From: Erythrobacter sp.
GTDB taxonomy: Bacteria > Pseudomonadota > Alphaproteobacteria > Sphingomonadales > Sphingomonadaceae
NCBI GenBank assembly: GCA_020446625.1
Contig: JAGREI010000001.1
Location: forward strand, 1 to 47,319
Length of the DNA: 47,319 nucleotides
Reading direction: 5' to 3'
Part shown: positions 1 to 32,990 of the stretch, one piece after another
Layout of the letters: each line of letters begins with the position of its first letter
How positions within the stretch are numbered: the first letter of the stretch is position 1
The notes under the pieces: generated by a model
Told to the model about the DNA's origin: nothing
Seen by the model: the letters and a program-made list of their open reading frames with translations, nothing else
Database searches by the model: none
Made by a program: the position numbers and the translations under genes

Positions 1-2
1 AT

Positions 3-1187
3 CACTTCCTGCGCACCAAGATCGCGCCGCTGGTGCTCGATCCGGCGCGGCTGCACGACGATACGTACCTGGCCGATAGCCTGGCCGATTATCGCGCGCT
101 TTATGCCGCCTACTACGAGCGCTGCAAGCGCGGCAATTCGCCCGCCATGCGCGATGCCAACCCGGTGGTGGTGCTGGTGCCTGGCCTGGGTCGGATGACG
201 TTTGCCACCGACAAGGCCACCGCCCGGATCGCGGGCGAGTTTTACCTCAATGCCATCAACGTGATGCGCGGCGCCGAGGCCATCGGCGATTACATCGCGC
301 TCGACGAGCAGGAAGCCTTCGACATCGAATACTGGCTGCTCGAGGAAGCCAAGCTGCAACGGATGCCCGCGCCCAGGCCGATGGTCGGCAAGGTCGCGCT
401 GGTCACCGGCGGGGCTGGCGGCATCGGTGCCGCCACCGCCGCACGGCTGCTGAAGGACGGCGCCTGCGTGATGCTGGCGGACCGCGATGGCGATGTGGTC
501 GAGACAGTCCGCGCCGGGTTCGCCAAGCAGTTCGGCAAGGACGTGGTGCGCGCCGTGACTTGCGACGTAACCGACGAAGCGCAAGTCGCCGCCGCCTTTG
601 CCGAATGCGCGCGCGAGTTCGGCGGGCTGGATATTCTGGTGGCCAACGCCGGGATCGCCTCCAGCGCCCCCATCGAACAGACCACGGTGGAACTGTGGGA
701 TCGCAATTTCGACGTGCTGGCGCAGGGCTATTTCCTCACCGCCAAGCACGCCTGGCCCTTGCTCAAGGTGATGAAGGAACAGGGTGGCACTTCGGTGGTG
801 TTCATCGGCTCGAAGAACGCCGTGGCTGCCGCTGCGGGAGCCTCCGCCTATGCCAGCGCCAAGGCGGCGGCGAACCACCTCGCGCGCTGCCTCGCCCTCG
901 AAGGCGCGCCCGAGGGCATCCGCGTCAACGTGGTCAACCCCGATGCGGTCATCAAGGGCAGCCGCATCTGGGACGGTGACTGGCGCAAGGAACGCGCGGC
1001 ATCGAACAAGATCGACGCCGGTGAAGAACTCGAAGCGCACTACCGCAACCGTTCCATGCTGAAGCGCGACGTGCTGCCCGAGGACATCGCCGAAGCGGCC
1101 TATTGGCTGGCCAGCGAAGCGAGCGCAAAGTCGACCGGGAACATGATCAACGTCGACGCGGGCAACGTCCAGGCGTTCACGCGCTAG
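3..1187 (+). CDS. rhaD: Bifunctional rhamnulose-1-phosphate aldolase / short-chain dehydrogenase (RhaD/RhaEW type), 5'-truncated by window edge
   Basis: Frame is open from base 3 (HFLRTKIAPL). Contains EQEAFDIEYWLLEEAKL, SDR motifs TGGAGGIG, NAG and YASAK, and a C-terminal STGNMINVDAG. Adjacent to a rhamnose isomerase. Confidence 0.88.
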   Translation, partial: HFLRTKIAPLVLDPARLHDDTYLADSLADYRALYAAYYERCKRGNSPAMRDANPVVVLVPGLGRMTFATDKATARIAGEFYLNAINVMRGAEAIGDYIALDEQEAFDIEYWLLEEAKLQRMPAPRPMVGKVALVTGGAGGIGAATAARLLKDGACVMLADRDGDVVETVRAGFAKQFGKDVVRAVTCDVTDEAQVAAAFAECAREFGGLDILVANAGIASSAPIEQTTVELWDRNFDVLAQGYFLTAKHAWPLLKVMKEQGGTSVVFIGSKNAVAAAAGASAYASAKAAANHLARCLALEGAPEGIRVNVVNPDAVIKGSRIWDGDWRKERAASNKIDAGEELEAHYRNRSMLKRDVLPEDIAEAAYWLASEASAKSTGNMINVDAGNVQAFTR

Positions 1188-1206
1188 TCGGATCGGGGAG
1201 AGGACC

Positions 1207-2499
1207 ATGCAAACCACACCGATTTCGACTGACCTGATCGCCGAAAGCAACGCCCGCAACATGGCCGCGCTGGAGGACGATTACGCCGCGCTAGGACGCA
1301 AGCTCGAACGGCGCGGGATTGCCATCGAGGCCGTGACCGACAAGGCCAAGGGCTGGGAAGTCGCCGTTCCCAGCTGGGGCGCGGGCCGGGGTGGCACACG
1401 CTTCGCCAAGTTCCCGCTGGCGGGCGAGCCGACCAATATCCACGAGAAGCTGGAGGATTGTGCGGTCATCCAGCAGTTGGGCCGCACCACGCCCGGCGTC
1501 AGCCCGCACTTCCCGTGGGATTGCGTGGAAGACTACGGCGCGCTGCGTGAAGAGGCCGCAAGCTACGGCCTGCACTTCGACGCGGTCAACTCGAACACCT
1601 TTCAGGATCAGCCGGGCCAGGCGCAGACCTATGCCACCGGATCGCTGTCCAGCACGCTGGAAGCCACGCGACAGCAGGCCGTGGAACACAACATCGACTG
1701 CATCGAAATCGGCAAGCAGCTCGGCTCCAGCCTCCTGACCGTGTGGGTGGGTGACGGCACCAACTTCCCCGGCCAGCAGGACCTTGGCCGCAGCTTCGAT
1801 CGCTATGTCGAGGCCGCCGCGCAGGTCTATGCCGCGTTGCCCGACGACTGGCAGATGATGCTCGAACACAAGATGTTCGAACCCGCCTTCTATTCCAGCG
1901 TGATCTCCGACTGGGGTTCCTCGCTGATGGCGGCGCAGGAACTCGGCGACAAGTGCAAGTGCCTGGTCGACCTTGGCCACCATGCGCCCAACGTCAACAT
2001 CGAGCAGATCGTCGCTCGCCTGCACCGCGCGGGCAAGCTCGGCGGGTTCCACTTCAACGACAGCAAGTACGGCGACGACGACCTCGATTCAGGCTCGATC
2101 AACCCGCACCAGCTGTTCCTGGTGTTCAACGAACTGGCGGAGGCCGAAGCCGATCCGCGGCACGGCTTCGATCCGGCCTACATGATCGACCAGTCGCACA
2201 ACGTCACCGATCCGATCGAATCCATGCTGTCGTCTGCCGAAGCCATCGCCGGATGCCATGTCCGCGCCCAGTTGGTTGACCGGGATGCCTTGCGCGCGGC
2301 GCAGCAGGATAACGACGTGATGCTCGCCTTCCGCACCCTGCGCGCGGCCTATGAAACCGACGTCGGCCCCATCCTGGCCATGGCGCGGCTGGAGCAGGGC
2401 GGGGCGATCGACTGGCTTTCCACCTATCGCGCCAGCAAGTACCGCGAACGCAAGGCGCAGGAACGCAAGGCCGTGGGGCTGGGCGCGGGCATCGTCTAG
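1207..2499 (+). CDS. rhaI: L-rhamnose isomerase (RhaI type)
   Basis: VPSWG..GGTRF, PHFPWD, VNSNTFQD, WVGDGTNFPG, EHKMFEP, VDLGHH, FHFNDSKYGDDDL, IDQSHN; GAGGA RBS. Confidence 0.92.
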   Translation: MQTTPISTDLIAESNARNMAALEDDYAALGRKLERRGIAIEAVTDKAKGWEVAVPSWGAGRGGTRFAKFPLAGEPTNIHEKLEDCAVIQQLGRTTPGVSPHFPWDCVEDYGALREEAASYGLHFDAVNSNTFQDQPGQAQTYATGSLSSTLEATRQQAVEHNIDCIEIGKQLGSSLLTVWVGDGTNFPGQQDLGRSFDRYVEAAAQVYAALPDDWQMMLEHKMFEPAFYSSVISDWGSSLMAAQELGDKCKCLVDLGHHAPNVNIEQIVARLHRAGKLGGFHFNDSKYGDDDLDSGSINPHQLFLVFNELAEAEADPRHGFDPAYMIDQSHNVTDPIESMLSSAEAIAGCHVRAQLVDRDALRAAQQDNDVMLAFRTLRAAYETDVGPILAMARLEQGGAIDWLSTYRASKYRERKAQERKAVGLGAGIV

Positions 2500-4115
2500 A
2501 GCCTGTCCTCCAGGATCAGCTCGGCCGCGCGTTCGGCCACCGCCATTGCCGGGCCGTTGGTATTGCCCGAGATCGGCGTCGGCATGATCGAACAGTCGAC
2601 CACCCGCAGCGCGCCCACGCCATGCACGCGGCAACGCGCATCGGTGACCGAGGTCGCCGGATCGCTGCCCATGGCGCAGGTGCCCACACCGTGCAGGCCG
2701 CCTTCCACCATCTTCGCCAGTTCGGCGGCGATGGCCTGGTCGTCCTGCACCGCGTCACCGGGCATCCGTTCCTTGCCGATGAACATTTCGAGCGGGTCCG
2801 AACGGGCGATCCGGCGGAACAGCTTGAACAGCTCGATGGCCTTGGCCTGGTCGTAGGGATCGGCCCAGATCGCCGCGTCGATGGTGGGCGGCGTGCGGAA
2901 ATCGGGCGAGGTCAGCGTTACCGAGCCGCGGCTGCGCGGGCGCAGGTGATAGCCGGAGAAAGTGAGGCCGGGATTGGGCGTGAGCGGGCTGCCGGGCCGC
3001 GCCGCCATCTCGTTCACCGTGCGCATGGCGAAGGGCGCGGCGGCGACCTGGAAATCGGGCCATGCCGGGTCCACACCTTCGCTGGCGATCAGGCCCGTCA
3101 GCGGCATCCCCACGCGGGCCAGGTGGCCCGTGCCGGTGAGGAAGTATTGCAGCGCATTGCGATAGAGCCGCCAGCCGAAGAATTCGCGGTTGGTGCCGGG
3201 GTGGTTGGTGAGGTCGAACGAGACGCCGAACTTCTGGTGATCGGCCAGGTTCTGGCCCACCGCGCCTGCTTCGTGCAGCACCGGAATGCCTAGCTCCTGC
3301 AAGGCCGCGCCGGGGCCGATTCCCGACAGCTGCAACAGCTGCGGCGTGCCGTAGACGCCCGCGCTCAGGATCACTTCGCGCGCGGCGCTGTAGGTCAGTT
3401 CCTCGCCGTTCGCTTCGCACAGCACGCCGGTGGCGCGGCCATCCGCGAACAGCACCCGCTTCACCGCGGTATGCATGGCGATGGTGAGGTTGGGACGGCC
3501 ACGGATCGGCTTGACGAATGCCTTGTAGGCGCTCTCGCGCTCACCCTTGCGGTCGACGGTGTACTGGCTGCGCCCAACGCCGTGCGCGTTGGGGGTGGTA
3601 ATGTCGTCGAGCCAGGGCATTCCCTGCGTGCCGAAGCCCGCCACCAGCGCATCGAGCACCGGGGACTGGTAGGTGGAATTGGTGACTTGCAGTTCGCCGC
3701 CCTTGCCGCGCCCCGGATGGGCGCCGGGTTCGCGGTAATCCTCGAACTTCTGGTAACAGCGGGCGATCTCGTCCCAGCCCCATCCGGGCAGGCCCAGGTC
3801 GGCCCAGCTGTCGAAGTCCTGCGGCATCCCGGTCAGATACCAGGTGCCGTTGATGGCCGAGGAACCGCCAAGCCCGCGCCCATAGGTGTGGATGCCGGGG
3901 CGCATCCCCTCGCGCGGCTTCAGCGGGAAGACGCGGAAATATTCGGGATTGCCCATGATCTTCACGAAGCCGCCCGCCATGCGGATGAAGGGATGCTGGT
4001 TGTCGCCCCCGTCCTCGATCAGCAGCACGCGCGTGGCCGGATCGGCGCTCAACCGGTTGGCAAGCACGCAGCCAGCCGAGCCTGCGCCCACGATCACGTA
4101 ATCAAAGGTAGCCAT
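2496..4115 (-). CDS. GMC family FAD oxidoreductase (choline/alcohol dehydrogenase-like), cytoplasmic
   Basis: FDYVIVGAGSAGCVLANRLS, GRGLGGSSAING, VGQNLADH, HGVGTCAMG, SGNTNGP. No signal peptide. Start chosen at MATFDY (4115). Confidence 0.9.
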   Translation of the reverse strand: MATFDYVIVGAGSAGCVLANRLSADPATRVLLIEDGGDNQHPFIRMAGGFVKIMGNPEYFRVFPLKPREGMRPGIHTYGRGLGGSSAINGTWYLTGMPQDFDSWADLGLPGWGWDEIARCYQKFEDYREPGAHPGRGKGGELQVTNSTYQSPVLDALVAGFGTQGMPWLDDITTPNAHGVGRSQYTVDRKGERESAYKAFVKPIRGRPNLTIAMHTAVKRVLFADGRATGVLCEANGEELTYSAAREVILSAGVYGTPQLLQLSGIGPGAALQELGIPVLHEAGAVGQNLADHQKFGVSFDLTNHPGTNREFFGWRLYRNALQYFLTGTGHLARVGMPLTGLIASEGVDPAWPDFQVAAAPFAMRTVNEMAARPGSPLTPNPGLTFSGYHLRPRSRGSVTLTSPDFRTPPTIDAAIWADPYDQAKAIELFKLFRRIARSDPLEMFIGKERMPGDAVQDDQAIAAELAKMVEGGLHGVGTCAMGSDPATSVTDARCRVHGVGALRVVDCSIMPTPISGNTNGPAMAVAERAAELILEDRL

Positions 4116-4179: not shown

Positions 4180-4201
4180 AATTAGAAGACAAATTCTAAT
4201 T
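4180..4201. promoter_or_regulatory. Palindromic operator, copy 1 (AATTAGAA-N6-TTCTAATT), overlapping a sigma70-type promoter
   Basis: Perfect inverted repeat in an AT-rich divergent intergenic region. TTGACG at 4160-4165 lies 17 nt before TAGAAG. Confidence 0.75.
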
Positions 4202-4242
4202 AATGCGCCGCGCAGATCATGCCGGGCGTAGATGGAGGGGTT

Positions 4243-4626
4243 ATGTTGCCAGTTGAACGGGTTATCGGTGAAGAGGGGCTGCGCGCGGTCGATGGTGACC
4301 TGGTGCTGGCCTGCCGCCTGCCGTGGTACCGCTCGTTGCCGTTCTCGACCGTGGAATTTGCCAGCCTGGCGATCGACGGGCAGCCGGTCGACCTGGCCCA
4401 GGCGCAGGTGGAATTCGACGGCAACCGCTGGCCGATGGGCGACAACGGAGAGAAGGTCGATACCTTCTGGTTCGTGCGCGACAGTGCCTTCCTGATCCTG
4501 CCCGGCGTCGCGCTGGCCCCCGGCAGCGAGCACGAGGTGGCGCTGACGATCAACGTCAATCCGCCCTACATCCCCGGCATGAAGCGAATGAACCCGCAGG
4601 TGGAAAGCCTGCGCGTCGAAGGTTGA
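4243..4626 (+). CDS. C-glycoside deglycosidase beta subunit (DUF6379 family), copy 1
   Basis: CRLPWYRSLPFSTVE..LAIDG signature, 127 aa, GGAGG RBS at 4234, directly upstream of the TIM-barrel alpha subunit. Confidence 0.8.
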   Translation: MLPVERVIGEEGLRAVDGDLVLACRLPWYRSLPFSTVEFASLAIDGQPVDLAQAQVEFDGNRWPMGDNGEKVDTFWFVRDSAFLILPGVALAPGSEHEVALTINVNPPYIPGMKRMNPQVESLRVEG

Positions 4627-5788: not shown

Positions 5789-6697
5789 ATGAAGCTGGTT
5801 TCGCGCAAGGGTTGCGGCGTGCTGCTGCTGGTGCTGCTGGCGATCCCGCTGGGGTTCGTGGCGGCCAACTGGGACGTGATCCAGCGCGTGTTCCTGGGCG
5901 GGGTGAAAGTCTACGAGACAGAGGCCCCGGCCATCCCCGCAGACTTGCCGCACCCGGCGGTCCTGGTCTTTTCCAAGACTAACGCCTTCCGCCACGAGGA
6001 AGCGATCCCTGCCGCCAACGCCCTGTTCGCGGACTTCGCGCGCGACAACGGCTGGGGCTATTTCCAGACCGAGAACGGCGCGACATTCTCGCCCGAGATC
6101 CTCTCTCGCTTTGATGCCGTGGTGTTCAACAACGTCAGCGGTGACGTGTTCACACCCGAACAGCGCGCTGCCTTCCAGGCGTTTCTGGAAAACGGCGGCG
6201 GTTACGTGGGCATCCATGCCGCCGGCGACAATTCGCACGCGGGCTGGCCGTGGTACGTGTCCGACATCATCGGCACCAGTTTCATCGGCCACCCGATGAG
6301 CCCGCAGTTCCAGCAGGCACAGGTGACGATCGAGGATCACGCCAATCCGGCAACCGCCACGCTGGGCGACACCTGGCTGCACACTGACGAGTGGTATTCG
6401 TTCGACGCTTCCCCGCGTCCGATCCCCGGCCTGCACGTTCTCGCGACAATCGACGAGCAGAGCTACAGCCCGGATGGCATGTTCGGGCAGGACCTGCGCA
6501 TGGGGGCGGATCATCCGGTGGTCTGGTGGCGCTGCGTGGTCCAGGGCCGCGCGCTCTATTCGGCCATTGGCCATACCGCCGAATCCTATGCCGAACCAGA
6601 ATATCGCGCGCTGCTGCTGGGGGCCACGCGCTGGGCAATGGGGCTGGAAGGCGAGGGCTGCGGCACGCCCGCGCCGGTGACGGGAGAGCAGGAATGA
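5789..6697 (+). CDS. ThuA-like domain protein with N-terminal membrane anchor/signal
   Basis: VLVFSKTNAFRHEEAI, GGGYVGIHAAGD, DEWYSF, DHPVVWWR, LYSAIGH; hydrophobic N-terminus. Alternative start at 5780. Confidence 0.85.
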   Translation: MKLVSRKGCGVLLLVLLAIPLGFVAANWDVIQRVFLGGVKVYETEAPAIPADLPHPAVLVFSKTNAFRHEEAIPAANALFADFARDNGWGYFQTENGATFSPEILSRFDAVVFNNVSGDVFTPEQRAAFQAFLENGGGYVGIHAAGDNSHAGWPWYVSDIIGTSFIGHPMSPQFQQAQVTIEDHANPATATLGDTWLHTDEWYSFDASPRPIPGLHVLATIDEQSYSPDGMFGQDLRMGADHPVVWWRCVVQGRALYSAIGHTAESYAEPEYRALLLGATRWAMGLEGEGCGTPAPVTGEQE

Positions 6698-7999: not shown

Positions 8000-8854
8000 A
8001 TGCCCATCGGCATCAACCTGCTGCTGTGGACGGGGCATGTAACGCGCGAATTGCGCCCGGTGCTGGAGGAGATTGCCGCAACCGGGTTCGACGGGGTCGA
8101 GGTGCCGGTGTTCGATGCCACCGATCCGGGCCACTACCGCGACCTTGCTTCCCTGCTCGACGACCTGGGGCTGCGCCGTACGGTTTCCACCGCCTTCTCC
8201 GACCCCCGGCTGAACCCGGTTTCTCCCGTGCCGGGCGAACGGCAGGCGGCTTTCGACCAGGCGCGGCAGGTGGCGGATTGCGCTGCCGCACTGGGCGGCG
8301 AACTGGTCGTGGGGCCGCTGTTCCAGCCGCTGGGCCATTTTACCGGCACGGGGCCGAGCGAGGCGGAGCTGGACTGCTGCGCTGCCTTCCTGTCGGCATA
8401 TGCCGGGGAGATGCGTGATCGCCAGTTGACCTGCGCGGTCGAGCCGCTCAACCGGTTCGAGGCGCATGTCCTCAACACCGGTGCGCAAGCCGTGGCCATG
8501 ATGGAACGGGTGGCCGATCCCGCCGTGGGCGTGCTGTTCGACACCTTCCACGCGCATATCGAGGAAAAGGATCCGCTGGCCGCGCTGGGCCAGCTGCTCG
8601 ATGCAGGCGTGCTGGCGCATGTCCACGTCTCCGAAAACGATCGCGGCACGCCGGGCAGCGGCCAGGCGCGCATTGCCGAGGCGATCGGGCTGGTCCGCGC
8701 GCGGGATTACCGTGGCTGGCTGACGATCGAGGCATTCGGCCAGGCCGTGCCGGAACTGGCCGCCGCCACGCGCGTGTGGCGGCCGTTCTTCGTAGACCCG
8801 GCGGAAGTGGTCAGCCAGGGTTATCGCTACATTCGCGAATGCATCGCTGGCTGA
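8000..8854 (+). CDS. Sugar phosphate isomerase/epimerase, D-psicose/D-tagatose 3-epimerase family
   Basis: EPLNRFE, FDTFHAHIEE, HVHVSENDRGTPG, IEAF metal ligands. Confidence 0.85.
   Translation: MPIGINLLLWTGHVTRELRPVLEEIAATGFDGVEVPVFDATDPGHYRDLASLLDDLGLRRTVSTAFSDPRLNPVSPVPGERQAAFDQARQVADCAAALGGELVVGPLFQPLGHFTGTGPSEAELDCCAAFLSAYAGEMRDRQLTCAVEPLNRFEAHVLNTGAQAVAMMERVADPAVGVLFDTFHAHIEEKDPLAALGQLLDAGVLAHVHVSENDRGTPGSGQARIAEAIGLVRARDYRGWLTIEAFGQAVPELAAATRVWRPFFVDPAEVVSQGYRYIRECIAG

Positions 8855-12310: not shown

Positions 12311-12311
<1 letters not shown>
10611..12311 (+). CDS. GMC flavoprotein, glucoside 3-dehydrogenase type, copy 1
   Basis: AIVIGSGMSGG, GGRSLMWGRQSYR, Cys cluster CQVRSICERGC, NLMDH, IHEMGTARMG, CQNPSLTYMA. 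Confidence 0.88.
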
Positions 12312-22352: not shown

Positions 22353-22373
22353 AATAGAATAGAAGTTCTAATT
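22353..22373. promoter_or_regulatory. Palindromic operator, copy 3 (AATAGAA-N6-TTCTAATT)
   Basis: Near-perfect inverted repeat downstream of TTGACC (22334-22339). Confidence 0.75.
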
Positions 22374-25195: not shown

Positions 25196-26251
25196 ATGAA
25201 GACGATCAAGGGACCGGCGATCTTCCTCGCCCAGTTTGCGGGCGATGCGGCCCCGTTCAACTCGCTCGACGCGATCTGCGGCTGGGTGGCGGGCCTGGGA
25301 TACAAGGGCGTGCAGATACCCAGCTGGGACGCGCGGCTGTTCGACCTCGACAAGGCTGCCGCCAGCCAGGACTATTGCGACGAAGTGGCGGGCGTGGTGG
25401 CCAGCCACGGCCTCGCCATCACCGAGCTTTCCACGCACCTGCAAGGCCAGCTGGTGGCGGTCCACCCGGCCTATGATGCGCAGTTCGACGGGTTTGCCGC
25501 ACCGCATGTGCGCGGCAATCCGCAGGCGCGGCAGGAATGGGCGGTGGACCAGGTGAAGAAGGCCGGCACCGCCAGCCAGCGGCTGGGCCTGACCGCACAT
25601 GCCACCTTCTCCGGCGCGCTGGCCTGGCCTTACCTCTACCCCTGGCCGCAGCGCCCGGCGGGACTGGTGGAGGATGCCTTCGACGAACTGGCGCGTCGGT
25701 GGACGCCGATTCTCGACCATTTCGACCAGTGCGGCGTCGACGTGGCCTATGAAATCCATCCCGGCGAAGACCTGCACGACGGCGTGACTTTCGAGATGTT
25801 CCTCGAACGGGTGAACAACCACCCGCGCGCCAACATTCTCTACGATCCCAGCCACTTCGTGCTGCAATGCCTCGACTATCTCGATTACATCGACATCTAC
25901 CACGAGCGTATCAAGTGCTTCCACGTGAAGGATGCCGAGTTCAACCCCACCGGGCGGCAGGGCGTTTACGGCGGCTTCCAGTCGTGGGTCGATCGCGCGG
26001 GGCGGTTCCGTTCGCTGGGTGACGGGCAGGTCGATTTTTCCGCGATCTTCAGCAAGATGGCGCAGTACGATTTTCCCGGCTGGGCGGTGCTGGAATGGGA
26101 ATGCGCGCTGAAGCATCCCGAACAGGGCGCGGCCGAAGGGGCGCCGTTCATCGCCAATCACATCATCACGGTGACCGAACATGCGTTTGACGATTTCGCC
26201 GCCGGCAGCGCCGATCGCGAACTCAACCGGCGGCTGATGGGGATCGGCTAG
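25196..26251 (+). CDS. Sugar phosphate isomerase/epimerase TIM barrel (IolE-like; candidate hydratase/lyase)
   Basis: IKGPAIFLAQF, YEIHPGEDLHDG, YDPSHF, FHVKDAEF, LEWEC. Confidence 0.87.
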   Translation: MKTIKGPAIFLAQFAGDAAPFNSLDAICGWVAGLGYKGVQIPSWDARLFDLDKAAASQDYCDEVAGVVASHGLAITELSTHLQGQLVAVHPAYDAQFDGFAAPHVRGNPQARQEWAVDQVKKAGTASQRLGLTAHATFSGALAWPYLYPWPQRPAGLVEDAFDELARRWTPILDHFDQCGVDVAYEIHPGEDLHDGVTFEMFLERVNNHPRANILYDPSHFVLQCLDYLDYIDIYHERIKCFHVKDAEFNPTGRQGVYGGFQSWVDRAGRFRSLGDGQVDFSAIFSKMAQYDFPGWAVLEWECALKHPEQGAAEGAPFIANHIITVTEHAFDDFAAGSADRELNRRLMGIG

Positions 26252-26254: not shown

Positions 26255-26878
26255 TCAACCCCAGCCGGGCGCCTTGCCGGGCTTCCACTCGATCGAGCAA
26301 CCCGCGCTTGGCACCTGCGGCTGCGGCGCGGGCTGGTCTGCCAGCACGGCATCGGCGGCGCGGCGCAGGTCTACGCCGGTGACCGGCAGGCTGCGACGGT
26401 ACATTTCTGTTCCTGGCAGCGGCGGATGCGGCAAGGGCGGGCGGCTGGGATCGAACTGCCCGCAATAGGCCAGCTGCATCGCGCCATCCGCTCCCCTGGC
26501 GTAGAGGAAGAAATCGGGCGTGCAGATCGCACCATAGGCCAGCGCCACCTCTTGCGTTTCGTCGTGCAGGTAAGGGAAGGGGAAGTGCCTTTCCGCCGCC
26601 AGGATGGCCATGTGCCGTGGGCTGTCCTCGGGAAACTGCACCGCGTCGTTCGCGGAGATGGCCACGACTTGCAGCCCTTGCGGCGTGTATTCGTTCGCAA
26701 ATTCGATCAGCCCGTCGAGCAGGTGCAGCACGAAGGGGCAATGGTTGCAGATGAACGTCACCAGCAGCCCCTTGCCATGGATGAACTCGTCCAGGCTGCG
26801 CAGGGTGCCGGTGGTGTCGGGCAAGGCGAACGGGTGAGGTGCGGCGCCGTAATCGACCTGGCGCGACAGCTTGAGCAT
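26255..26878 (-). CDS. Thioredoxin-fold redoxin (AhpC/TSA-like)
   Basis: FICNHCPFV, AISAND, FPYLHDETQEVA.AYGAICTPDFF, GCSIEWK. GGAGG lies 6 nt before ATG 26878; alternative start at 26884. Confidence 0.87.
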   Translation of the reverse strand: MLKLSRQVDYGAAPHPFALPDTTGTLRSLDEFIHGKGLLVTFICNHCPFVLHLLDGLIEFANEYTPQGLQVVAISANDAVQFPEDSPRHMAILAAERHFPFPYLHDETQEVALAYGAICTPDFFLYARGADGAMQLAYCGQFDPSRPPLPHPPLPGTEMYRRSLPVTGVDLRRAADAVLADQPAPQPQVPSAGCSIEWKPGKAPGWG

Positions 26879-26892: not shown

Positions 26893-26914
26893 TATTAGAA
26901 TATCCATTCTGATA
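26893..26914. promoter_or_regulatory. Palindromic operator, copy 5 (TATTAGAA-N6-TTCTGATA)
   Basis: Lies between divergent genes. A minus-strand TTGACT (26934-26929) plus 17 nt reaches CAGAAT inside the palindrome. Confidence 0.72.
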
Positions 26915-26947: not shown

Positions 26948-27535
26948 ATGGAAGGCACGGGCTGGAACCGCCGCGAATTCGTCCGCGCGGCAGCATTGCT
27001 GGGGACGGCCCTGGGCCTGCCCGGCTGTGTGACCGCCACCGCGCTCGATCCCGCGCTGGCCCCGACGATCGACGAGCTGGCTCTGGCGAACACGGTGGCC
27101 GACCTTGTCATCCCCGCCACTGAGACTCCCGGCGCGGCAGAGGCCGATGTGGGCGCCTTCGTGCTGCTGGCGCTGGCGCATGGCCTGGAAGGCGCGCGCG
27201 ACCCGCTGGCTGCCGGGGCGATTACCGCCGCGATCCGTCCGCACCTGCGTGCCGATGGCAGCCTCGATCACATGCGCTGGCTGGCATCCGCGTTGCCCGC
27301 ACCATCACCCTCCAGTCTTGCCGCGCTTGACGCCGCCGCCTTCGCCAACCAGCCCGACGCCCAGCCGTGGCGGCTGCTCAAGCGGCTGATCCTGACCGGC
27401 TACTACACCTCGCAGATCGGCGGATCGCAGGAGCTGCAATATGCCGCCGCCCCCGGTCGCTTCGATCCGATGGTGCCGCTGACGCCGGAAACGCGCGCCT
27501 ATTCGAATGAGTGGAACGGGGTGGAGTTCGGCTGA
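26948..27535 (+). CDS. Gluconate 2-dehydrogenase subunit-3 family Tat small subunit, copy 2
   Basis: NRREFV Tat motif followed by LPGC, VIPATETPGA, KRLILTGYYTSQIG, PGRFDP. Confidence 0.83.
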   Translation: MEGTGWNRREFVRAAALLGTALGLPGCVTATALDPALAPTIDELALANTVADLVIPATETPGAAEADVGAFVLLALAHGLEGARDPLAAGAITAAIRPHLRADGSLDHMRWLASALPAPSPSSLAALDAAAFANQPDAQPWRLLKRLILTGYYTSQIGGSQELQYAAAPGRFDPMVPLTPETRAYSNEWNGVEFG

Positions 27536-29223
27536 TGGAAGAGGACTTCGATTTCGACGCCATCGTGGTCGGTTCGGGCATCACCGGCGGCTGGTCGGCC
27601 AAGCAGCTGACCGAGGCGGGGCTGAAGGTGCTGATGCTGGAACGCGGGCCGGATATTCCGCACCGTTCGGGCTATACCACCGAGATGAAGGCGCCGTGGG
27701 ACATGCCGTTCCGCGGCAAGGGCGACGCCCAGCTCTATGCCGAACAGTACCCGGTCCAGCGGCTGAACCGCCACTTCACCGAATTCACGCAGGATCACTT
27801 CGTCAACGATGCCGAAAACCCCTACCAGCAGGGCGAAGGCGCGTTCGACTGGTTCCGCAGCTACCAGCTGGGCGGGCGCTCGCTGACCTGGGGGCGGCAA
27901 AGCTATCGCTGGTCGGACTATGACTTCGGCGCCAACGCGCGCGATGGCCACGGCACCGACTGGCCGATCCGCTATGCCGACCTTGCCCCGTGGTACGATC
28001 TGGTGGAGGACTTCATCGGCGTATCCGGTTCGCTGGAGGGCCTGCCGCAGCTGCCCGACGGGCATTTCCAGCCGCCGATGGCGCTGAACCCGGTGGAAAG
28101 CGCCGTGCGCGAACGGATTTCCGCGCGCTGGCCCGAACGCCGCCTGATGATCGGGCGCACCGCCAACCTGACGCAGGCCAAGGAAGGGCGCGTACCGTGC
28201 CAGTATCGCTCGATCTGCGCGCGCGGCTGTTCGTTCGGGGCCTATTTCTCCACCCAGTCGAGCACGCTGCCCGCCGCCCAGGCGACCGGCAACCTGACGC
28301 TGGTGACCGATGCCGTGGTGGAGAAGGTGGACTATGATCCGGTGGCAGGCCGCGTCACCGGCGTGCGCTGGATCGACCGCAGCGACATGAGCCGCAAGAG
28401 CGCCTCTGCGCGCATGGTGTTCCTCAATGCGGGCAGCTTCAACTCGGTTCACCTGCTGCTGAATTCGGCCAGCGAAGACCAGCCGCACGGCCTCGCCAAC
28501 CGTTCGGGCGTACTGGGGCAATACATCATGGATCACGCCAGCACCCTGTCGGTGGCGGCGCTGATCCCCGGCTTCGAGCAGGTGACCACCTTCGGCAACC
28601 GCCCCACCGGCACCGTCATCGCGCGCTATCGCAACATGGACGTGATGGACGGCGTGGGCCACACGCGCGGCTATTCGTTTCAGGGCGGGGCGCTACAATC
28701 GGCCTGGGTGCGCGGAATGCGCGAGCCGGGCGTGGGGGCCGATTTCAAGCAGGGCCTGCGCGGTCCCGGCCCCTGGCGCATGGTGCTGGTGGCCTTTGCC
28801 GACTGTATGCCGCGCGCCAGTAATCGCCTGACGCTGGACCGCGCGAACGTGGATGCCAACGGCTTGCCGCAGCTGAAGATCGACTTCGCCTTCGGGGCGG
28901 AGGAACTGGCCGCGCTGGCGCAGGCCAAGGCCGATGCGGCGGAGATGATGGCGCATGTCGGCGGGCAGGTGCTGATGGGCTTCGACCGGCCCGGCACGGC
29001 AGGCAGCGCGATCCACGAGATGGGTGGCGCGCGCATGGGCCACGATCCGGCCACCAGCGTGCTCAACCGCTGGAGCCAGGCGCATGACATTCCCAACCTG
29101 TTCGTCACCGACGGCGCGCAGATGGCGTCAAGCGCCTGCCAGAACCCCTCGCTCACCTACATGGCACTGACCGCGCGGGCGGCAGAGCACGCGGTGGAAC
29201 TTTTGCGCGAAGGGCAGCTGTAA
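27535..29223 (+). CDS. GMC flavoprotein, glucoside 3-dehydrogenase type, copy 2
   Basis: AIVVGSGITGG, GGRSLTWGRQSYR, CQYRSICARGC, YIMDH, IHEMGGARMG, CQNPSLTYMA; TGATG coupling. Confidence 0.88.
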   Translation: MEEDFDFDAIVVGSGITGGWSAKQLTEAGLKVLMLERGPDIPHRSGYTTEMKAPWDMPFRGKGDAQLYAEQYPVQRLNRHFTEFTQDHFVNDAENPYQQGEGAFDWFRSYQLGGRSLTWGRQSYRWSDYDFGANARDGHGTDWPIRYADLAPWYDLVEDFIGVSGSLEGLPQLPDGHFQPPMALNPVESAVRERISARWPERRLMIGRTANLTQAKEGRVPCQYRSICARGCSFGAYFSTQSSTLPAAQATGNLTLVTDAVVEKVDYDPVAGRVTGVRWIDRSDMSRKSASARMVFLNAGSFNSVHLLLNSASEDQPHGLANRSGVLGQYIMDHASTLSVAALIPGFEQVTTFGNRPTGTVIARYRNMDVMDGVGHTRGYSFQGGALQSAWVRGMREPGVGADFKQGLRGPGPWRMVLVAFADCMPRASNRLTLDRANVDANGLPQLKIDFAFGAEELAALAQAKADAAEMMAHVGGQVLMGFDRPGTAGSAIHEMGGARMGHDPATSVLNRWSQAHDIPNLFVTDGAQMASSACQNPSLTYMALTARAAEHAVELLREGQL

Positions 29224-30162: not shown

Positions 30163-31380
30163 CTAAGCCTCCTTGATTGCAGCCCGGCTGCGCATGAACA
30201 GCGCGATCAGCACGCCGCCGATTACCGCCGCCACGCCGACCACCAGGAAGGCCCCCTGGTTGGTGCCGCTTTCGCTGCGGATAGCGCTCAGCACCCAGGG
30301 CGAGGCGAACTGGCCGAAGAAGAAGGTGGCCGTCCACACGCCCATGCCGCGCCCGCGATGGGCGGCGGGCAGCGTGTTCTGCGCCCAGGCCACCAGCACC
30401 GGCACCGCCATGCCCGCGCCGGTCTGTTGCAGCACCATCCCGGCGATCATGCCCTGCCAGTTGGGCGTCAGCCCCATTAGCGCCAGGCCCGTACCCAGGA
30501 AGCCGAGCATGGCGGCAACCTGCCAGCGCGCGCCCAGGCCCTTGCGCCCCATCAGCCAGAACAGCGCCGCCCCGGCGAGGATGAACAGGCTGGGCAGGGC
30601 GGTGATGCGGCCGATGCTTTCGGGATCGGCAATGCCCAGCTCCTGCCACACCAGCGATCCGTTCACGATGAACACGTAGTAGATCAGCGAGGTGAACAGC
30701 GTCAGCCCGCCGATGCCCAGCATCAGCAGCCAGGGAAAGCCGCCCGTCGATACGCCTTCCTCGTCCATGCCCAGGTTGCGGCGCACGGTGGCGTCGCTTT
30801 CCGGTTCGAACATGCACTTCAGCATGGCGAAGAAGATCGGCAGCGCCATCAGGTAGAGCAGGAAGATGCCGTTCCAGCGCCAGGCCGTCAGCGTTCCGGC
30901 GAAGAAGATCATCACCGACGACAGGAACGGTCCCACCATGCCTTGCAGGGTGAGCCAGGTGCGGCGGTCCTTCTCGCCCCAGTAGTCCGCGATCAAGGTG
31001 TTGATCGTGGTCAGGATCGCCGCCTCGCTGACGCCCAGCAGCAGGCGCGAGGCATAGATCGCGTCGAGATTTTCGAGGAAGAACGGGATCACCCCGATGA
31101 AACCGTAACTGAAGGTGGATACCAGCAGCAGCTTGCGCCGCCCGAACTTGTCCACCAGCACGCCCGCGAACAGCGCGATCACCGCGATGGCCAGCCCCGG
31201 CGCGGTCACCATCGACGGCACCTTGGTGGCGGCATTGGGATCGCTGGGCGCGAAATGGCCGATCATCGCCCCCACGGCGGGGAACATCGAAACGATTGCC
31301 AGGATGGGCAGGAACGCGGTGAGGATCACCGTCAATCCCTGCGGAATGCCGGCCTTTCGCGGCGTGGTTACCTCAGTCAT
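30163..31380 (-). CDS. MFS transporter (12-TMS)
   Basis: GVLVDKFGRRK motif A, RLLLG, LIADYW, HRGRGMG. Confidence 0.87.
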   Translation of the reverse strand: MTEVTTPRKAGIPQGLTVILTAFLPILAIVSMFPAVGAMIGHFAPSDPNAATKVPSMVTAPGLAIAVIALFAGVLVDKFGRRKLLLVSTFSYGFIGVIPFFLENLDAIYASRLLLGVSEAAILTTINTLIADYWGEKDRRTWLTLQGMVGPFLSSVMIFFAGTLTAWRWNGIFLLYLMALPIFFAMLKCMFEPESDATVRRNLGMDEEGVSTGGFPWLLMLGIGGLTLFTSLIYYVFIVNGSLVWQELGIADPESIGRITALPSLFILAGAALFWLMGRKGLGARWQVAAMLGFLGTGLALMGLTPNWQGMIAGMVLQQTGAGMAVPVLVAWAQNTLPAAHRGRGMGVWTATFFFGQFASPWVLSAIRSESGTNQGAFLVVGVAAVIGGVLIALFMRSRAAIKEA

Positions 31381-31476
31381 CAATCCCGCTCCCGTGAGGC
31401 TCGAATCGCCGTTCTTGTGCGCCGTGAAATTGCACCACGGCACCGTGTCGGATTGACGCTAGGCGATTTCACCGCA

Positions 31477-31498
31477 TAATAGAAGCAGCATTTTAATT
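31477..31498. promoter_or_regulatory. Palindromic operator, copy 6 (TAATAGAA-N6-TTTTAATT)
   Basis: Lies between two divergent MFS genes; TTGACG at 31453-31458 and CATAAT at 31475-31480. Confidence 0.68.
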
Positions 31499-31544
31499 TG
31501 CTGCGCCGGAAAGCTCCGGAAGGTCGCAGCGGGCGGGGGCAGGC

Positions 31545-32990
31545 ATGACTGGCGACACGGCACAGACGGATGCGGTACCCAGCGCGGCATTGAGCGAGGG
31601 CAAGCGCACGGCAGCCTTCTTCACGGTCTTGATCGCGGTGGTGCTGGAAGTGGTCGATTCGACTATCGTCAACACCGCGCTGCCGGTGATCCGCCAGTCG
31701 CTGGATGCGTCCCCGGCGGAAATGCAGTGGATCGTGGCGGGATACCTGCTGCTGCTGGGATCGCTGCTGCTGCTGGGCGGGCGGCTGGGTGATGCACTGG
31801 GCCATTCGCGGATGTTCCTGGCCGGGGTAGCAGCCTTCGTCGTCGCTTCGGTGCTGTGCGGCCTGGCCCGCAATCCGGAGGAACTGATCGCCGCGCGCAT
31901 GTTGCAGGGCGCGGCGGGGGCGATCATGGCGCCGCAGTCGATGGCCGTGGTGCAATTGCTCTATTCCCCGCTCGAACGGGTGAAGCAGCTGGCCTATTTC
32001 GGGCTGGTGCTGGGCCTGGCGGCGATCCTGGGGCCGATCCTGGGCGGCGCGCTGATCGACCTGGATGTGCTGGGCCTGGGCTGGCCGGTGATCTTCCTCA
32101 TCAACCTGCCGATCGGGCTGCTCGCGCTGGTGCTTGGCTGGTTCGTGCTGCCCACGGCGGAGGACAAGGCAGAGCTGCGTGTAGACCCGCTGGGCGCGCT
32201 GGTGTTCAGCCTGGGGCTGGGCGGCGTGCTCTATGCCCTGATCGAAGGCAACGAGAAGGGCTGGACCCTGAACCTCGGTGCGCTGCTGGTGCTGGCCGTC
32301 GCGCTGCTGGCCTGGGGCTGGTGGCGCGCCCGGAGGCGGGAGGCGGCACATCTGCCCACGATCATCCGGCCCACGCTGTTCGCCATTCCCACCTTCTGCT
32401 GGGCGACCACGGCATCCTTCGCCTTTGCCGCCGCCTCGATCGGCTTCCTGCTGGTGTTCGCGGTTGCCCTGCAAAGCGGCCTGGGCCTGTCGCCGCTGGA
32501 TACTGCGCTGGTGCATATCCCCTTTGGCATCGGGGTGATGGTGGCGGTGGGAGTCTTCGTGCCGCGATTGTTGCCGCGGCTGGGCAAGCTGGTGCCGCTG
32601 GCGGGCGGGTTGCTGATGCTGGCGGGTGCCGTCGCATCCATGCTGCTGATCGCCGGGGGCGACGGCGGCAATGCGCCGCTGCTGGTGATCCTGGCCTTTA
32701 CCGGGGTGGGCATGGGGCTGCTCAACGGCCCGCTCGGCCCGATCGTGGTGGCGGACGTTTCGCGCGAACATGCCGGTACGGCCAGTGCCACTTTCCGCAC
32801 CGCGCAGCAGATCGGCGGCGCGGCGGGGATCGCGCTTGTGGGCGGTGCCTATTTCGCCCGCGCGGCGGCTACCGGCACGCCGCTGGCGGGGATGCTTCCC
32901 GCCGCCGTGGTGGTGGCCGTGCTGCTGGCCGTTACGGTTGCCTGCGTGTGGATGCTGCCGCGCCGCCTGTTCGCCGGGGATGCGGACTGA
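31545..32990 (+). CDS. MFS DHA2 (EmrB/QacA-like) efflux transporter
   Basis: DSTIVNTALP, WIVAGYLL, GGRLGD, ARMLQGAAGA, GPILGG, W.VIFLINLPIG. Confidence 0.88.
   Translation: MTGDTAQTDAVPSAALSEGKRTAAFFTVLIAVVLEVVDSTIVNTALPVIRQSLDASPAEMQWIVAGYLLLLGSLLLLGGRLGDALGHSRMFLAGVAAFVVASVLCGLARNPEELIAARMLQGAAGAIMAPQSMAVVQLLYSPLERVKQLAYFGLVLGLAAILGPILGGALIDLDVLGLGWPVIFLINLPIGLLALVLGWFVLPTAEDKAELRVDPLGALVFSLGLGGVLYALIEGNEKGWTLNLGALLVLAVALLAWGWWRARRREAAHLPTIIRPTLFAIPTFCWATTASFAFAAASIGFLLVFAVALQSGLGLSPLDTALVHIPFGIGVMVAVGVFVPRLLPRLGKLVPLAGGLLMLAGAVASMLLIAGGDGGNAPLLVILAFTGVGMGLLNGPLGPIVVADVSREHAGTASATFRTAQQIGGAAGIALVGGAYFARAAATGTPLAGMLPAAVVVAVLLAVTVACVWMLPRRLFAGDAD

What the first reader, a model, noticed from the sequence alone, without database searches (positions are those of the whole stretch)
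1..32990. Candidate integrated flavonoid O-/C-glycoside utilisation locus in a sphingomonad-like bacterium
Seen: one contiguous locus has a TonB receptor, GH106 rhamnosidase plus rhamnose catabolism, two glucoside 3-dehydrogenase-type pairs, two C-deglycosidase alpha/beta pairs, several TIM-barrel enzymes, Gfo/Idh/MocA, ThuA, esterases, an aromatic monooxygenase, MFS transporters and a NodD-like regulator. Known: C-deglycosidases (DgpBC/CarBC type) cleave 3''-oxo C-glycosides after sugar C3 oxidation, GH106 enzymes remove rhamnose from flavonoid glycosides, and NodD/FdeR sense flavonoids. Inference: this is a PUL-like pipeline of import, deacylation, derhamnosylation, C3 oxidation, C-C/C-O elimination, sugar recovery and aglycone hydroxylation or export. 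I do not recall this full architecture being described, but cannot verify novelty.
Basis: partly seen in the sequence, partly recalled or inferred. Interest (0 to 1): 0.85.

Follow-up and report, generated by a model that had tools for sequence, protein, structure and literature searches.

The report
Sphingomonad plant C-glycoside cleavage regulon
A sewage-sludge sphingomonad carries a 33-kb gene cluster that likely strips sugars, including carbon-linked ones, off plant polyphenols by a known oxidise-then-cut chemistry, and its most novel part is an unstudied flavoenzyme, found almost only beside the sugar-cutting genes, that is predicted to be a new kind of sugar-oxidising starter enzyme.

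Summary
The gene inventory is real. Positions 1-32990 hold 27 genes: two C-deglycosidase alpha/beta pairs with all catalytic residues kept, two periplasmic glycoside 3-dehydrogenase-type pairs, an O-eliminase, a hydratase, a Gfo reductase, GH106, a TonB receptor, esterases, transporters and two regulators. A same-genus genome keeps 25 of the 27 in order. The cluster is a mosaic rather than one indivisible pipeline. It has a C-glycoside core, an O-rhamnoglucoside module that also occurs without deglycosidases, and the tail of a rhamnose operon; ring-cleavage genes sit on another contig. A palindrome, ATTAGAA-N6-TTCTAAT, marks the core: 4 of its 5 genome sites are here, and it recurs in relatives; it is likely the TetR operator. 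It lay beside a deglycosidase in 7 of 7 sampled genomes that have it, carries the palindrome in 17 of 17 relatives, and fills the oxidase slot where no GlycDH was found. It may be a third flavoenzyme type of C3-oxidase (about 45%). Substrates are untested. Verdict: new variant of a known pathway.

The parts
3..1187 (+). 3' part of bifunctional rhamnulose-1-phosphate aldolase/dehydrogenase (RhaAD), cut by the contig start
   Evidence: TIGR02632 541 bits on a partial protein; 5' part, RhaB and DeoR on contig C384
1207..2499 (+). L-rhamnose isomerase
   Evidence: TIGR02629 630 bits, cut-off 647; 81% to the gene beside GH106 in Novosphingobium PP1Y
2496..4115 (-). GMC0: GMC flavoenzyme of the choline/alcohol oxidase clade, no signal peptide seen; candidate cytoplasmic C-glycoside C3-oxidase/dehydrogenase
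   Evidence: fold; His475/Asn518 invariant in 56 homologues; linkage
4181..4200 (.). Perfect palindrome ATTAGAA-N6-TTCTAAT between GMC0 and deglycosidase pair 1; likely TetR operator
4219..4626 (+). C-deglycosidase beta subunit 1 (DUF6379), LPWYR motif as in AgCarC2, Tyr39 equivalent kept
   Evidence: PF19906 38 bits
4641..5636 (+). C-deglycosidase alpha subunit 1; best PDB match AgCGD2 (7DNM)
   Evidence: 164 bits, E 4.5e-47; Glu147, His149, Asp179, His269, Lys271, Glu305, Glu307 equivalents kept
5789..6697 (+). ThuA-family protein with a hydrophobic N-terminus
   Evidence: PF06283 197 bits
6694..7995 (+). MFS transporter 1
   Evidence: PF07690; 80% to the one in the deglycosidase-free module of G097
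8000..8854 (+). TIM-barrel keto-sugar epimerase-like protein, role unassigned
   Evidence: PF01261 125 bits; psicose epimerase/IolO models far below cut-off
8856..9833 (-). Predicted Tat lipoprotein 3-keto-O-glycoside eliminase (AtOGE-like)
   Evidence: best PDB 8BVK, E 1.9e-18; His134 and His189 equivalents kept; RR and lipobox
9985..10599 (+). Glycoside 3-dehydrogenase-type small (Tat) subunit 1
   Evidence: PF13618 66 bits; RR signal
10611..12311 (+). Glycoside 3-dehydrogenase-type large subunit 1
   Evidence: GMC domains; 49% to subunit 2
12311..15679 (+). GH106 alpha-L-rhamnosidase, predicted lipoprotein
   Evidence: PF17132 947 bits; 51.5% to the only GH106 match on the PP1Y megaplasmid
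15676..16587 (-). NodD/FdeR-like LysR regulator
   Evidence: 39% to NodD1; closest plasmid homologues (50-55%) lie beside orthologues of the monooxygenase
16749..17636 (+). Secreted alpha/beta-hydrolase esterase 1
   Evidence: PF20434 BD-FAE, PF07859
17638..18303 (-). TetR-family repressor, likely binder of the palindrome
   Evidence: PF00440; near pair 2 in 50 of 80 related loci; weak palindrome 18327-18346 before its own start
18479..18493 (.). ATC-N9-GAT (nod-box-like LysR motif) upstream of the TonB receptor
   Evidence: 19 of 36 receptor upstream regions versus 2.3 shuffled; the nod-box label is recalled
18697..21093 (+). TonB-dependent receptor
   Evidence: PF00593, PF07715; homologue in 57 of 80 related loci
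21166..22278 (+). FAD monooxygenase, PRK06847 family; likely aglycone ring hydroxylase
   Evidence: NF005313 above cut-off; 57-62% homologues sit beside ring-cleavage genes
22353..22372 (.). Palindrome copy before deglycosidase pair 2
   Evidence: present upstream of 56 of 79 orthologues
22456..23463 (+). C-deglycosidase alpha subunit 2; best PDB match 8QVC
   Evidence: 366 bits, E 1.9e-108; metal ligands and catalytic His kept
23478..23870 (+). C-deglycosidase beta subunit 2, LPYYR motif, Tyr39 equivalent kept
   Evidence: PF19906 131 bits
24026..24045 (.). Weak palindrome copy (3 mismatches) before Gfo-HYD
24064..25179 (+). Gfo/Idh/MocA oxidoreductase, likely 3-keto-sugar reductase
25196..26251 (+). 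2-hydroxy-3-keto-glucal hydratase (HYD)
   Evidence: PDB 8RO4, 608 bits, E 5e-182
26255..26878 (-). Thioredoxin-fold (AhpC/TSA) protein with CxxC
   Evidence: PF00578 53 bits; palindrome upstream in 8 of 13 orthologues
26894..26913 (.). Palindrome copy between the thioredoxin-fold gene and G3DH pair 2
26948..27535 (+). Glycoside 3-dehydrogenase-type small (Tat lipoprotein) subunit 2
   Evidence: PF13618 59 bits; RR and lipobox
27535..29223 (+). Glycoside 3-dehydrogenase-type large subunit 2, a clade confined to deglycosidase-bearing genomes in the sample
   Evidence: 15 of 15 genomes with a match of 69% or more have PF19906
29246..30157 (-). Secreted alpha/beta-hydrolase esterase 2
30163..31380 (-). 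MFS transporter 2
   Evidence: homologue in 39 of 80 related loci
31478..31497 (.). Palindrome copy between MFS2 and MFS3
31545..32990 (+). DHA2-type efflux MFS transporter, possible aglycone exporter
   Evidence: TIGR00711 203 bits, cut-off 230

Best explanation
The cluster encodes two C-deglycosidase pairs and the other enzymes of the oxidise-eliminate-hydrate-reduce route, and it likely lets the cell take sugars off plant aryl C- and O-glycosides such as flavone C-glucosides and rutinosides. Inferred order: the TonB receptor imports the glycoside. Periplasmic esterases and GH106 remove acyl and rhamnosyl groups. Tat-exported GlycDH-type enzymes oxidise sugar C3, and the exported eliminase cuts O-glycosides. 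C-glycosides enter through MFS carriers, oxidised outside by G3DH-2 or inside by GMC0, and are cut by one of two cytoplasmic deglycosidases, possibly one for C6- and one for C8-linked sugars. HYD and Gfo recover glucose; the rha genes use rhamnose. The monooxygenase likely hydroxylates the aglycone for the ring-cleavage genes on contig C335, or the DHA2 pump exports it. A TetR repressor likely controls the C-glycoside core through the palindrome, and the NodD-like LysR likely controls the receptor. Shown: genes, residues, linkage, motifs. Inferred: substrates, order, localisation, regulation.
For: Both alpha subunits keep the metal ligands and catalytic His and both beta subunits keep the Tyr that is needed for C-C cleavage (roles from PMC8563793 and PMC10628242). 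HYD matches 8RO4 at E 5e-182; the eliminase matches 8BVK with both key His. Rhizobium GlycDH oxidises vitexin, orientin, isovitexin and puerarin at C3 (PMC10628242 passages). All 18 deglycosidase-bearing genomes of 250 have HYD, and 15 have the G3DH-2 clade, which occurs in no other sampled genome. Around pair 2 in 80 related loci: beta 79, receptor 57, TetR 50, Gfo 40, HYD 39, G3DH-2 39. Palindrome: 14 strand-matches versus 0.32 expected; 4 of 5 genome sites in the cluster; 76 of 80 related loci carry one; reversed-pattern control 0 in 5 genomes. Novosphingobium P6W has receptor, GH106, GH1, deglycosidase, GH43, Gfo, HYD, MFS, GMC0-like, LysR, monooxygenase, VOC, hydrolase, cyclase and FAH in one run. 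A PP1Y rhamnosidase hydrolyses naringin and rutin (PMC6710449 passage).
Against: No activity, growth or expression data. The aglycone class is not fixed by sequence: characterised deglycosidases also cut carminic acid and mangiferin. Identity of the G3DH subunits to Rhizobium GlycDH and of the monooxygenase to FdeE was not measured directly. The C8 assignment of pair 1 is weak (164 versus 143 bits; beta subunit ties 36.8 versus 36.9). GH106 and rha genes are unlinked from the deglycosidase in most relatives (0 of 80 loci within 10 kb of pair 2; 2 of 7 genomes within 25 kb). The monooxygenase is near pair 2 in only 11 of 80 loci and the LysR in 4. Signal peptides were read by simple pattern only. 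The organism was found in activated sludge and wastewater, not on plants.
Confidence: 0.78

Rival explanations
1. The chemistry is right but the natural substrates are not mainly flavonoids: anthrone, chromone, xanthone or microbial aryl C-glycosides, with the rhamnose and O-glycoside genes serving saponins or polysaccharide fragments.
For: Characterised deglycosidases accept carminic acid and mangiferin. Close GH106 homologues occur in tomato-root Sphingobium plasmids. HYD and GlycDH-like genes occur in 46 and 45 of 250 genomes, most without a deglycosidase. The host is from sludge.
Against: NodD-like regulator with a nod-box-like motif. Monooxygenase relatives sit in operons whose gene families match the fde/ifc flavonoid ring-cleavage sets, and such a set is in this genome. 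GH1, GH3, GH43 and GH106 accessories fit decorated flavone C-glycosides (inference).
Confidence: 0.13
2. The region is a landing site where separately regulated modules (rhamnose operon, O-glycoside module, C-glycoside regulon, LysR-monooxygenase) accumulated; they act on unrelated substrates and do not form one pathway.
For: Each module occurs alone elsewhere: O-glycoside module in G097; rha plus GH106 about 250 kb from the deglycosidases in PP1Y; the palindrome is absent from rha, GH106, G3DH-1, eliminase and esterase 1. G011 lacks the adjacent rha genes and carries xylose isomerase and xylulokinase inside the cluster instead.
Against: Rhamnosidase-deglycosidase linkage recurs in different arrangements and lineages: P6W, RAC03, G103, G011 and Arthrobacter NicSoilB11. 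The O-module here has no HYD or Gfo of its own, and the genome has a single HYD, so its products would need the core.
Confidence: 0.07
3. On GMC0 alone (an alternative within the best explanation): it is not the C3 oxidant. The Gfo enzyme oxidises the glycoside with NAD as DgpA does, and GMC0 oxidises a primary alcohol, such as sugar C6 or an aglycone side chain, or rescues a dead-end 2-keto isomer.
For: Its nearest solved relatives oxidise primary alcohols: chloramphenicol oxidoreductase, alcohol oxidase, choline oxidase. Gfo is present in the GlycDH-free loci. G084 has Gfo (in two pieces) and HYD with no flavo-oxidase in the 16 kb read. G193 has a distant (31%) GlycDH-like large subunit elsewhere. 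Two loci have pair-1 alpha without GMC0 (L036, L089). This genome already has two GlycDH-type enzymes.
Against: 42 of 46 HYD-bearing genomes have a GlycDH-type enzyme. Of the three deglycosidase-bearing genomes without one, two have a GMC0-like gene in the deglycosidase-Gfo-HYD run and the third has another GMC next to the deglycosidase. In Deinococcus and Arthrobacter a different GMC occupies the same adjacent slot. The Agrobacterium Gfo is proposed as the reductase.
Confidence: 0.5

Closest known systems
Deinococcus aerius C-glycoside deglycosylation cluster (Furlanetto 2024, PMID 38508304; not held, title seen in reference lists only; link to PDB 8QVC and its C6 substrates recalled)
   Same: Pair 2 is a close relative (366 bits). 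The D. aetherius locus also joins TetR (34% to ours, with a palindrome-like site), GH3, transporter, deglycosidase, GMC, VOC, cyclase, FAH, hydrolase and monooxygenase.
   Different: ABC import and one pyranose-oxidase-type GMC there; here a TonB receptor, periplasmic GlycDH pairs, an eliminase, HYD, GH106, a second deglycosidase clade and GMC0, which aligns with the Deinococcus GMC over only 64 residues.
Agrobacterium tumefaciens GlycDH-OGE-HYD-Gfo operon (PMC10628242, passages)
   Same: All four functions have candidates here: HYD E 5e-182, OGE with His134/His189 kept, Tat-partnered GMC, Gfo.
   Different: AtOGE cannot cut C-glycosides and that operon has no deglycosidase; here two deglycosidases are added to the same route.
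Actinobacterial CarA-CarBC / PurABC / AgCGD1-2 / PsG3Ox clusters (PMC8563793, PMC12724307, PMC10646112)
   Same: Alpha/beta heteromer with the same active site; P. siccitolerans also has two pairs in one cluster; pair 1 is nearest AgCGD2.
   Different: Their oxidase is of the pyranose oxidase family; no such enzyme was found here (TIGR02462 best 51 bits, cut-off 545).
Gut dgpABC / dfg clusters
   Same: Homologous alpha and beta subunits (7BVR, 7BVS) and a Gfo oxidoreductase.
   Different: NAD-dependent DgpA oxidation in anaerobic Bacillota; no outer-membrane receptor or flavoenzyme.
RHA-P rhamnosidase of Novosphingobium sp. PP1Y (PMC6710449, passage)
   Same: 51.5% identical GH106 on the PP1Y megaplasmid, next to rhaAD (84%) and rhaI (81%); that this gene is RHA-P is inferred from its being the only match on that record.
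   Different: In PP1Y it lies about 250 kb from the deglycosidase genes.
fde (Herbaspirillum) and ifc (Variovorax) flavonoid A-ring cleavage clusters (PMC11069340, PMC11303751, passages)
   Same: FAD monooxygenase plus NodD-like LysR here; VOC dioxygenase, hydrolase, cupin, FAH, cyclase and Rieske genes on contig C335.
   Different: The ring-cleavage genes are outside this locus; sequence identity to FdeE or IfcA was not measured.

Membership tests
C-glycoside deglycosidase (DgpBC/CarBC) | TIM-barrel alpha subunit homologous to solved CGDs | tested here: met
   all 8 PDB matches of each alpha subunit are of this group; E 1.9e-108 and 4.5e-47
C-glycoside deglycosidase (DgpBC/CarBC) | Adjacent DUF6379 beta subunit | tested here: met
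   PF19906 over cut-off for both, 14 bases from the alpha gene in each pair
C-glycoside deglycosidase (DgpBC/CarBC) | Metal ligands and catalytic His/Glu (AgCGD2 E147, H149, D179, H269, K271, E305, E307) | tested here: met
   read from the alignments against residues named
C-glycoside deglycosidase (DgpBC/CarBC) | Beta-subunit Tyr39 needed for C-C cleavage | tested here: met
   YYR and WYR motifs align with DgpB Tyr39
C-glycoside deglycosidase (DgpBC/CarBC) | Heteromer formation | not tested
   no complex prediction was obtained
C-glycoside deglycosidase (DgpBC/CarBC) | Cleavage of 3''-oxo C-glycosides; C6 versus C8 preference | not testable with these tools
   needs assay
Four-step 3-keto-glycoside pathway | Hydratase of the AtHYD type | tested here: met
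   8RO4, 608 bits over residues 1-350
Four-step 3-keto-glycoside pathway | O-eliminase with catalytic His134 and metal His189 | tested here: met
   8BVK best hit, residues kept, but only 70 bits
Four-step 3-keto-glycoside pathway | GlycDH: GMC large subunit plus Tat small subunit, C3-specific | tested here: inconclusive
   architecture met; no GlycDH sequence appeared in PDB or plasmid searches for direct comparison
Four-step 3-keto-glycoside pathway | Gfo 3-keto-sugar reductase | tested here: inconclusive
   Gfo family, adjacent to HYD; best PDB matches are named only 'oxidoreductase'
Pyranose-oxidase-type C-glycoside oxidase (CarA, PurA, G3Ox), for GMC0 | Membership of the POx/CGOx sequence space | tested here: not met
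   TIGR02462 22 bits; only 64-67 aligned residues with the GMCs beside Deinococcus and Arthrobacter CGDs; fold nearest alcohol/choline oxidases
Choline dehydrogenase BetA, for GMC0 | Score over the equivalog cut-off | tested here: not met
   TIGR01810 312 versus 732 bits; NF002550 398 versus 605
GH106 alpha-L-rhamnosidase | Full-length PF17132 domain | tested here: met
   947 bits, model positions 2-742 of 743
NodD/FdeR regulators | Sequence clade of NodD | tested here: inconclusive
   39% to NodD1 over 292 residues; closer (50-55%) to uncharacterised sphingomonad LysRs; FdeR not compared
NodD/FdeR regulators | Flavonoid-dependent activation | not testable with these tools
   needs reporter assay
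FdeE/IfcA flavonoid 8-hydroxylases | Orthology to FdeE or IfcA | not tested
   no stored FdeE sequence; only gene-neighbourhood support
TonB-fed carbohydrate utilisation locus (PUL/CUT-like) | Receptor, inner-membrane carriers, enzymes and regulator clustered and conserved | tested here: met
TonB-fed carbohydrate utilisation locus (PUL/CUT-like) | Co-induction by the substrate | not testable with these tools
   no RNA holder listed

The most novel reading that the evidence does not exclude
GMC0 defines a third flavoenzyme family of C-glycoside 3-oxidases/dehydrogenases, drawn from the choline/alcohol oxidase clade and working in the cytoplasm beside the deglycosidase. It replaces the periplasmic GlycDH in some sphingomonads and supplements it in this one. 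With two deglycosidases split between C6- and C8-linked sugars under one TetR operator, sphingomonads would be broad aerobic Gram-negative degraders of plant C-glycosides in fresh water, soil and sludge.
Probability: 0.4. Interest if true: 0.7.

Novelty: new variant of a known kind. Interest (0 to 1): 0.52.

Why it matters
Flavonoid C-glycoside breakdown has been shown in gut anaerobes and in Gram-positive soil bacteria; PMC12724307 (2025) calls its Paenarthrobacter the first soil bacterium shown to catabolise a C-glycosylated flavonoid. This cluster points to a widespread Gram-negative version (18 of 250 sampled Sphingomonadaceae genomes; 147 GTDB stretches related to pair 2) and gives three cheap tests: a candidate new C3-oxidase family, a 20-base operator that could serve as a C-glycoside biosensor, and two deglycosidases of possibly complementary regiospecificity that would be useful as biocatalysts. 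Novosphingobium aromaticivorans DSM 12444 carries both pairs, GMC0 and the palindrome on pNL2 (SARO_RS18730-18765), so it can be tested in a cultured strain.

Tried and rejected
Ten full-text searches listed no paper describing a sphingomonad C-deglycosidase locus, this palindrome or a choline-oxidase-clade C-glycoside oxidase. Text searches of the supplements of PMC8563793 (2 files) and PMC12724307 (1 file) found no sphingomonad names; their figures were not visible and may show such homologues. Subscription papers (Furlanetto 2024; Kastner 2024 and Nasseri 2024, recalled) could not be read. C-mannosyl-tryptophan as substrate (recalled lead): none of the 10 listed papers held the term; left open, no support. 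No RNA holder listed. Contigs of four runs confirm presence only; none spans the locus. Sigma-70 scan of 15500-24200: 1 site versus 1.2 expected, uninformative. A join of contigs C403 and C335, or C384 and C174, by end overlap: none found. The 3-mismatch palindrome inside rhaI (1875) is treated as chance. No complex prediction and no protein-atlas result were obtained, so heteromer formation and the role of the 8000-8854 TIM barrel stay open. The alpha-subunit tree (51 of 125 rows, most pair-2 rows left out) separates the two pairs but has long-branch warnings and holds no characterised enzyme, so it was not used for specificity. GMC0 homologue names were generic, as were monooxygenase names.

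Full report
Setting. The window is the whole of contig C174 of a 74%-complete genome. Its relatives by protein search are mostly Sphingomonadales: Novosphingobium, Sphingomonas, Sphingobium, Blastomonas, Alteraurantiacibacter. Nine runs from five studies hold a fifth or more of the sampled words, all activated sludge or wastewater; near-identical pieces cover 29-30 of 30 bins in four laid runs. After base 32990 come a diguanylate cyclase and flagellar genes, so the right boundary is real. The left boundary is an assembly break inside rhaAD; rhaB, DeoR and the 5' part of rhaAD are on C384.

Observation. The two alpha subunits are 30% identical to each other and fall in separate clades. Alpha 2 matches PDB 8QVC at 366 bits. 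Alpha 1 matches AgCGD2 (7DNM) at 164 bits, ahead of 8QVC at 143. Reading those alignments against the residues named by Mori et al. (PMC8563793, passages), both keep the equivalents of Glu147, His149, Asp179, His269, Lys271, Glu305 and Glu307. Both beta subunits keep the tyrosine that aligns with DgpB Tyr39, whose loss removes over 99% of C-glycoside cleavage (PMC10628242). AgCGD2 accepts only the C8-linked compound, and the Deinococcus enzyme is recalled as C6-preferring, which suggests a C8/C6 split. The margin is small and the beta subunit ties, so I put this at about 40%.

The rest of the route. The TIM barrel at 25196-26251 is a close relative of the 2-hydroxy-3-keto-glucal hydratase 8RO4. 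The one at 8856-9833 has a twin-arginine lipoprotein signal and matches the O-eliminase 8BVK with His134 and His189 kept. The two GMC pairs have Tat small subunits, as Rhizobium GlycDH does; that enzyme oxidises vitexin, orientin, isovitexin and puerarin at C3, and its Agrobacterium operon encodes oxidation, elimination, hydration and reduction. Direct identity to GlycDH was not measured. By simple pattern, GH106, both esterases, the eliminase and both G3DH pairs are exported, whereas both deglycosidases, HYD, Gfo, the monooxygenase and GMC0 are not.

Conservation and modularity. G011 has 25 of the 27 genes in the same order at 46-90% identity, lacks the adjacent rha genes, and adds several genes. 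G014 and G016 have reduced versions. In a 250-genome family draw, PF19906 occurs in 18, HYD in 46, GlycDH-like genes in 45 and GH106 in 13. All 18 deglycosidase genomes have HYD. The 15 genomes with a G3DH-2 match of 69% or more are all deglycosidase-positive. Only 7 of the 13 GH106 genomes are, and 2 of those 7 have the genes within 25 kb (for the set counts; three of the seven are on different contigs and cannot be judged). G097 has eliminase, ThuA, Gfo, HYD, MFS1, G3DH-1, esterase and GH106 with no deglycosidase. So the locus joins a C-glycoside core, an O-rhamnoglucoside module and a rhamnose operon. The join recurs in other forms (P6W, RAC03, G103, Arthrobacter), which argues for shared substrates such as rhamnosylated C-glycosyl flavones (inference). 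Kin are not independent, so these counts are descriptive.

A regulon signature. Intergenic DNA holds the palindrome ATTAGAA-N6-TTCTAAT at 4181, 22353, 26894 and 31478, with weaker copies at 18327 and 24026: 14 strand-matches against 0.32 expected. The whole 2.92-Mb assembly has 5 sites within two mismatches, 4 here and one on C403 between a receptor and a TetR paralogue. The motif was found in the window and then tested on the 80 related loci: 76 carry it; it lies upstream of GMC0 in 17 of 17, alpha 2 in 56 of 79, and internal operon genes such as beta 2 and HYD in 0 of 79 and 0 of 39. In five other genomes most sites fall in the cluster and the reversed pattern gives none. A two-mismatch copy follows the TetR gene in the D. 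aetherius cluster. TetR binding is inferred from the palindrome form, the copy before tetR itself and TetR linkage (50 of 80 loci). The P6W, RAC03, G193, G299 and PP1Y stretches read have no site within two mismatches. Separately, ATC-N9-GAT lies upstream of 19 of 36 receptor genes versus 2.3 shuffled (the set includes the window and one duplicate), fitting control by the NodD-like LysR (39% to NodD1). An earlier AI note on another sphingomonad also saw a repressor-controlled deglycosidase set with a periplasmic flavoenzyme partner; it is a lead, not support.

GMC0, the missed gene. The GMC at 2496-4115 scores below the BetA cut-offs, is nearest chloramphenicol oxidoreductase, alcohol and choline oxidases by sequence and fold (pLDDT 87), and keeps an invariant His475/Asn518 pair. 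It is not of the pyranose-oxidase type that partners actinobacterial and Deinococcus deglycosidases. In the family draw it occurs in 7 of 250 genomes, each time beside a deglycosidase: five within about 200 bases of a pair-1 beta gene, two at 1.3 and 6.9 kb. On plasmids, 7 of 7 matches above 60% sit head to head with pair 1, and the next two (48-50%) lie in deglycosidase loci. Six of six metagenome matches above 60% have the beta gene beside them. From the other side, 17 of 21 loci with alpha 1 have GMC0, two are cut off and two lack it. G299 (100% complete) has HYD, Gfo, GMC0-like, MFS and deglycosidase in one run, with no GlycDH large subunit, small subunit or pyranose oxidase found. G193 is similar but has one distant large-subunit-like gene elsewhere. 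Since the pathway needs a C3 oxidant and 42 of 46 HYD genomes have a GlycDH-type one, GMC0 fills the empty slot. Against this, its relatives oxidise primary alcohols, Gfo could act as DgpA does, and G084 has HYD with no oxidase nearby. I put C3 oxidation at about 45%.

The aglycone. The monooxygenase passes NF005313. Its 57-62% homologues typically follow a LysR and precede a VOC dioxygenase, an FrsA-like hydrolase, a cyclase and an FAH, the gene families of the fde and ifc clusters that hydroxylate C8 and open the A ring (PMC11069340; PMC11303751). Here those partners are on contig C335 at 59-67% identity. Orthology to FdeE was not measured.

Comparison and novelty. Each reaction has a characterised precedent. 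Clusters with import, deglycosylation and ring cleavage exist in Deinococcus, and two pairs in one cluster are published. I found no description of the sphingomonad TonB-fed form, the palindrome or GMC0 in ten searches, with the limits given under Tried and rejected. The pairs are members of the C-deglycosidase family by every sequence test; the locus works like a union of the Agrobacterium four-step operon and the actinobacterial/Deinococcus C-deglycosylation cluster. Verdict: new variant of a known kind, interest 0.52; the GMC0 reading would merit about 0.7.

Noticed in passing
G000:C335 (L019 1-12018; L107 1-13985): Large aromatic cluster: TonB receptor, sulfatase, second NodD-like LysR (36%), second PRK06847 monooxygenase (40%), several VOC dioxygenases, Rieske O-demethylase, cyclase, P450, HisD-like dehydrogenase, FAH, cupin, FrsA-like hydrolase; likely aglycone ring cleavage.
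   Followed up: partly
G000:C403 487-506 (L022): Fifth palindrome (perfect) between a TonB receptor and a TetR paralogue followed by a metallo-beta-lactamase-fold gene and a formylglycine-generating enzyme; may tie sulfatase use to the regulon.
   Followed up: partly
G000:C35 (L021 5668-14026): Second glycosidase cluster: GH3, a distant GH106 (29%), a GH78-like rhamnosidase and a TetR, with an old-yellow-enzyme gene nearby.
   Followed up: no
L011, L014, L017 and many of L024-L103: Genes common around pair 2 in relatives but not found at this locus: GPH-family symporter (61 of 80), GH3 (37), luciferase-like monooxygenase (32), Rieske demethylase (29), SnoaL-like protein (27), DUF1080 (9). The luciferase-like gene often carries the palindrome (15 of 30) and is also in the Deinococcus cluster.
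   Followed up: partly
L126 (G247) and L130 (G092): Another deglycosidase clade sits next to a GMC only 34% like the G3DH large subunits; no PF13618 small subunit was found in G247. Possibly a further oxidase type.
   Followed up: partly
window 26255-26878: Thioredoxin-fold CxxC protein shares a palindrome with G3DH-2; it might protect against peroxide or reactive keto-glycosides (speculation).
   Followed up: no
L011 492-2198 and L010 19443-20000 (G011): Xylose isomerase and xylulokinase inserted inside the cluster, also in two other loci; suggests xylosylated or C-xylosyl substrates.
   Followed up: partly
window 32991-47319: GGDEF protein and a flagellar cluster (fliA, flhA, flgA, motA-like, flgB-K); the FlgE-like hook gene at 41672-42490 is short (272 aa).
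   Followed up: no
L113 7118-7131: GMC0 orthologue in a metagenome contig aligns in two frames (frameshift or assembly error).
   Followed up: no
L137 3-89 (G000:C384): The contig with the upstream rha genes begins with the C-terminal 29 residues of another GMC oxidoreductase.
   Followed up: no
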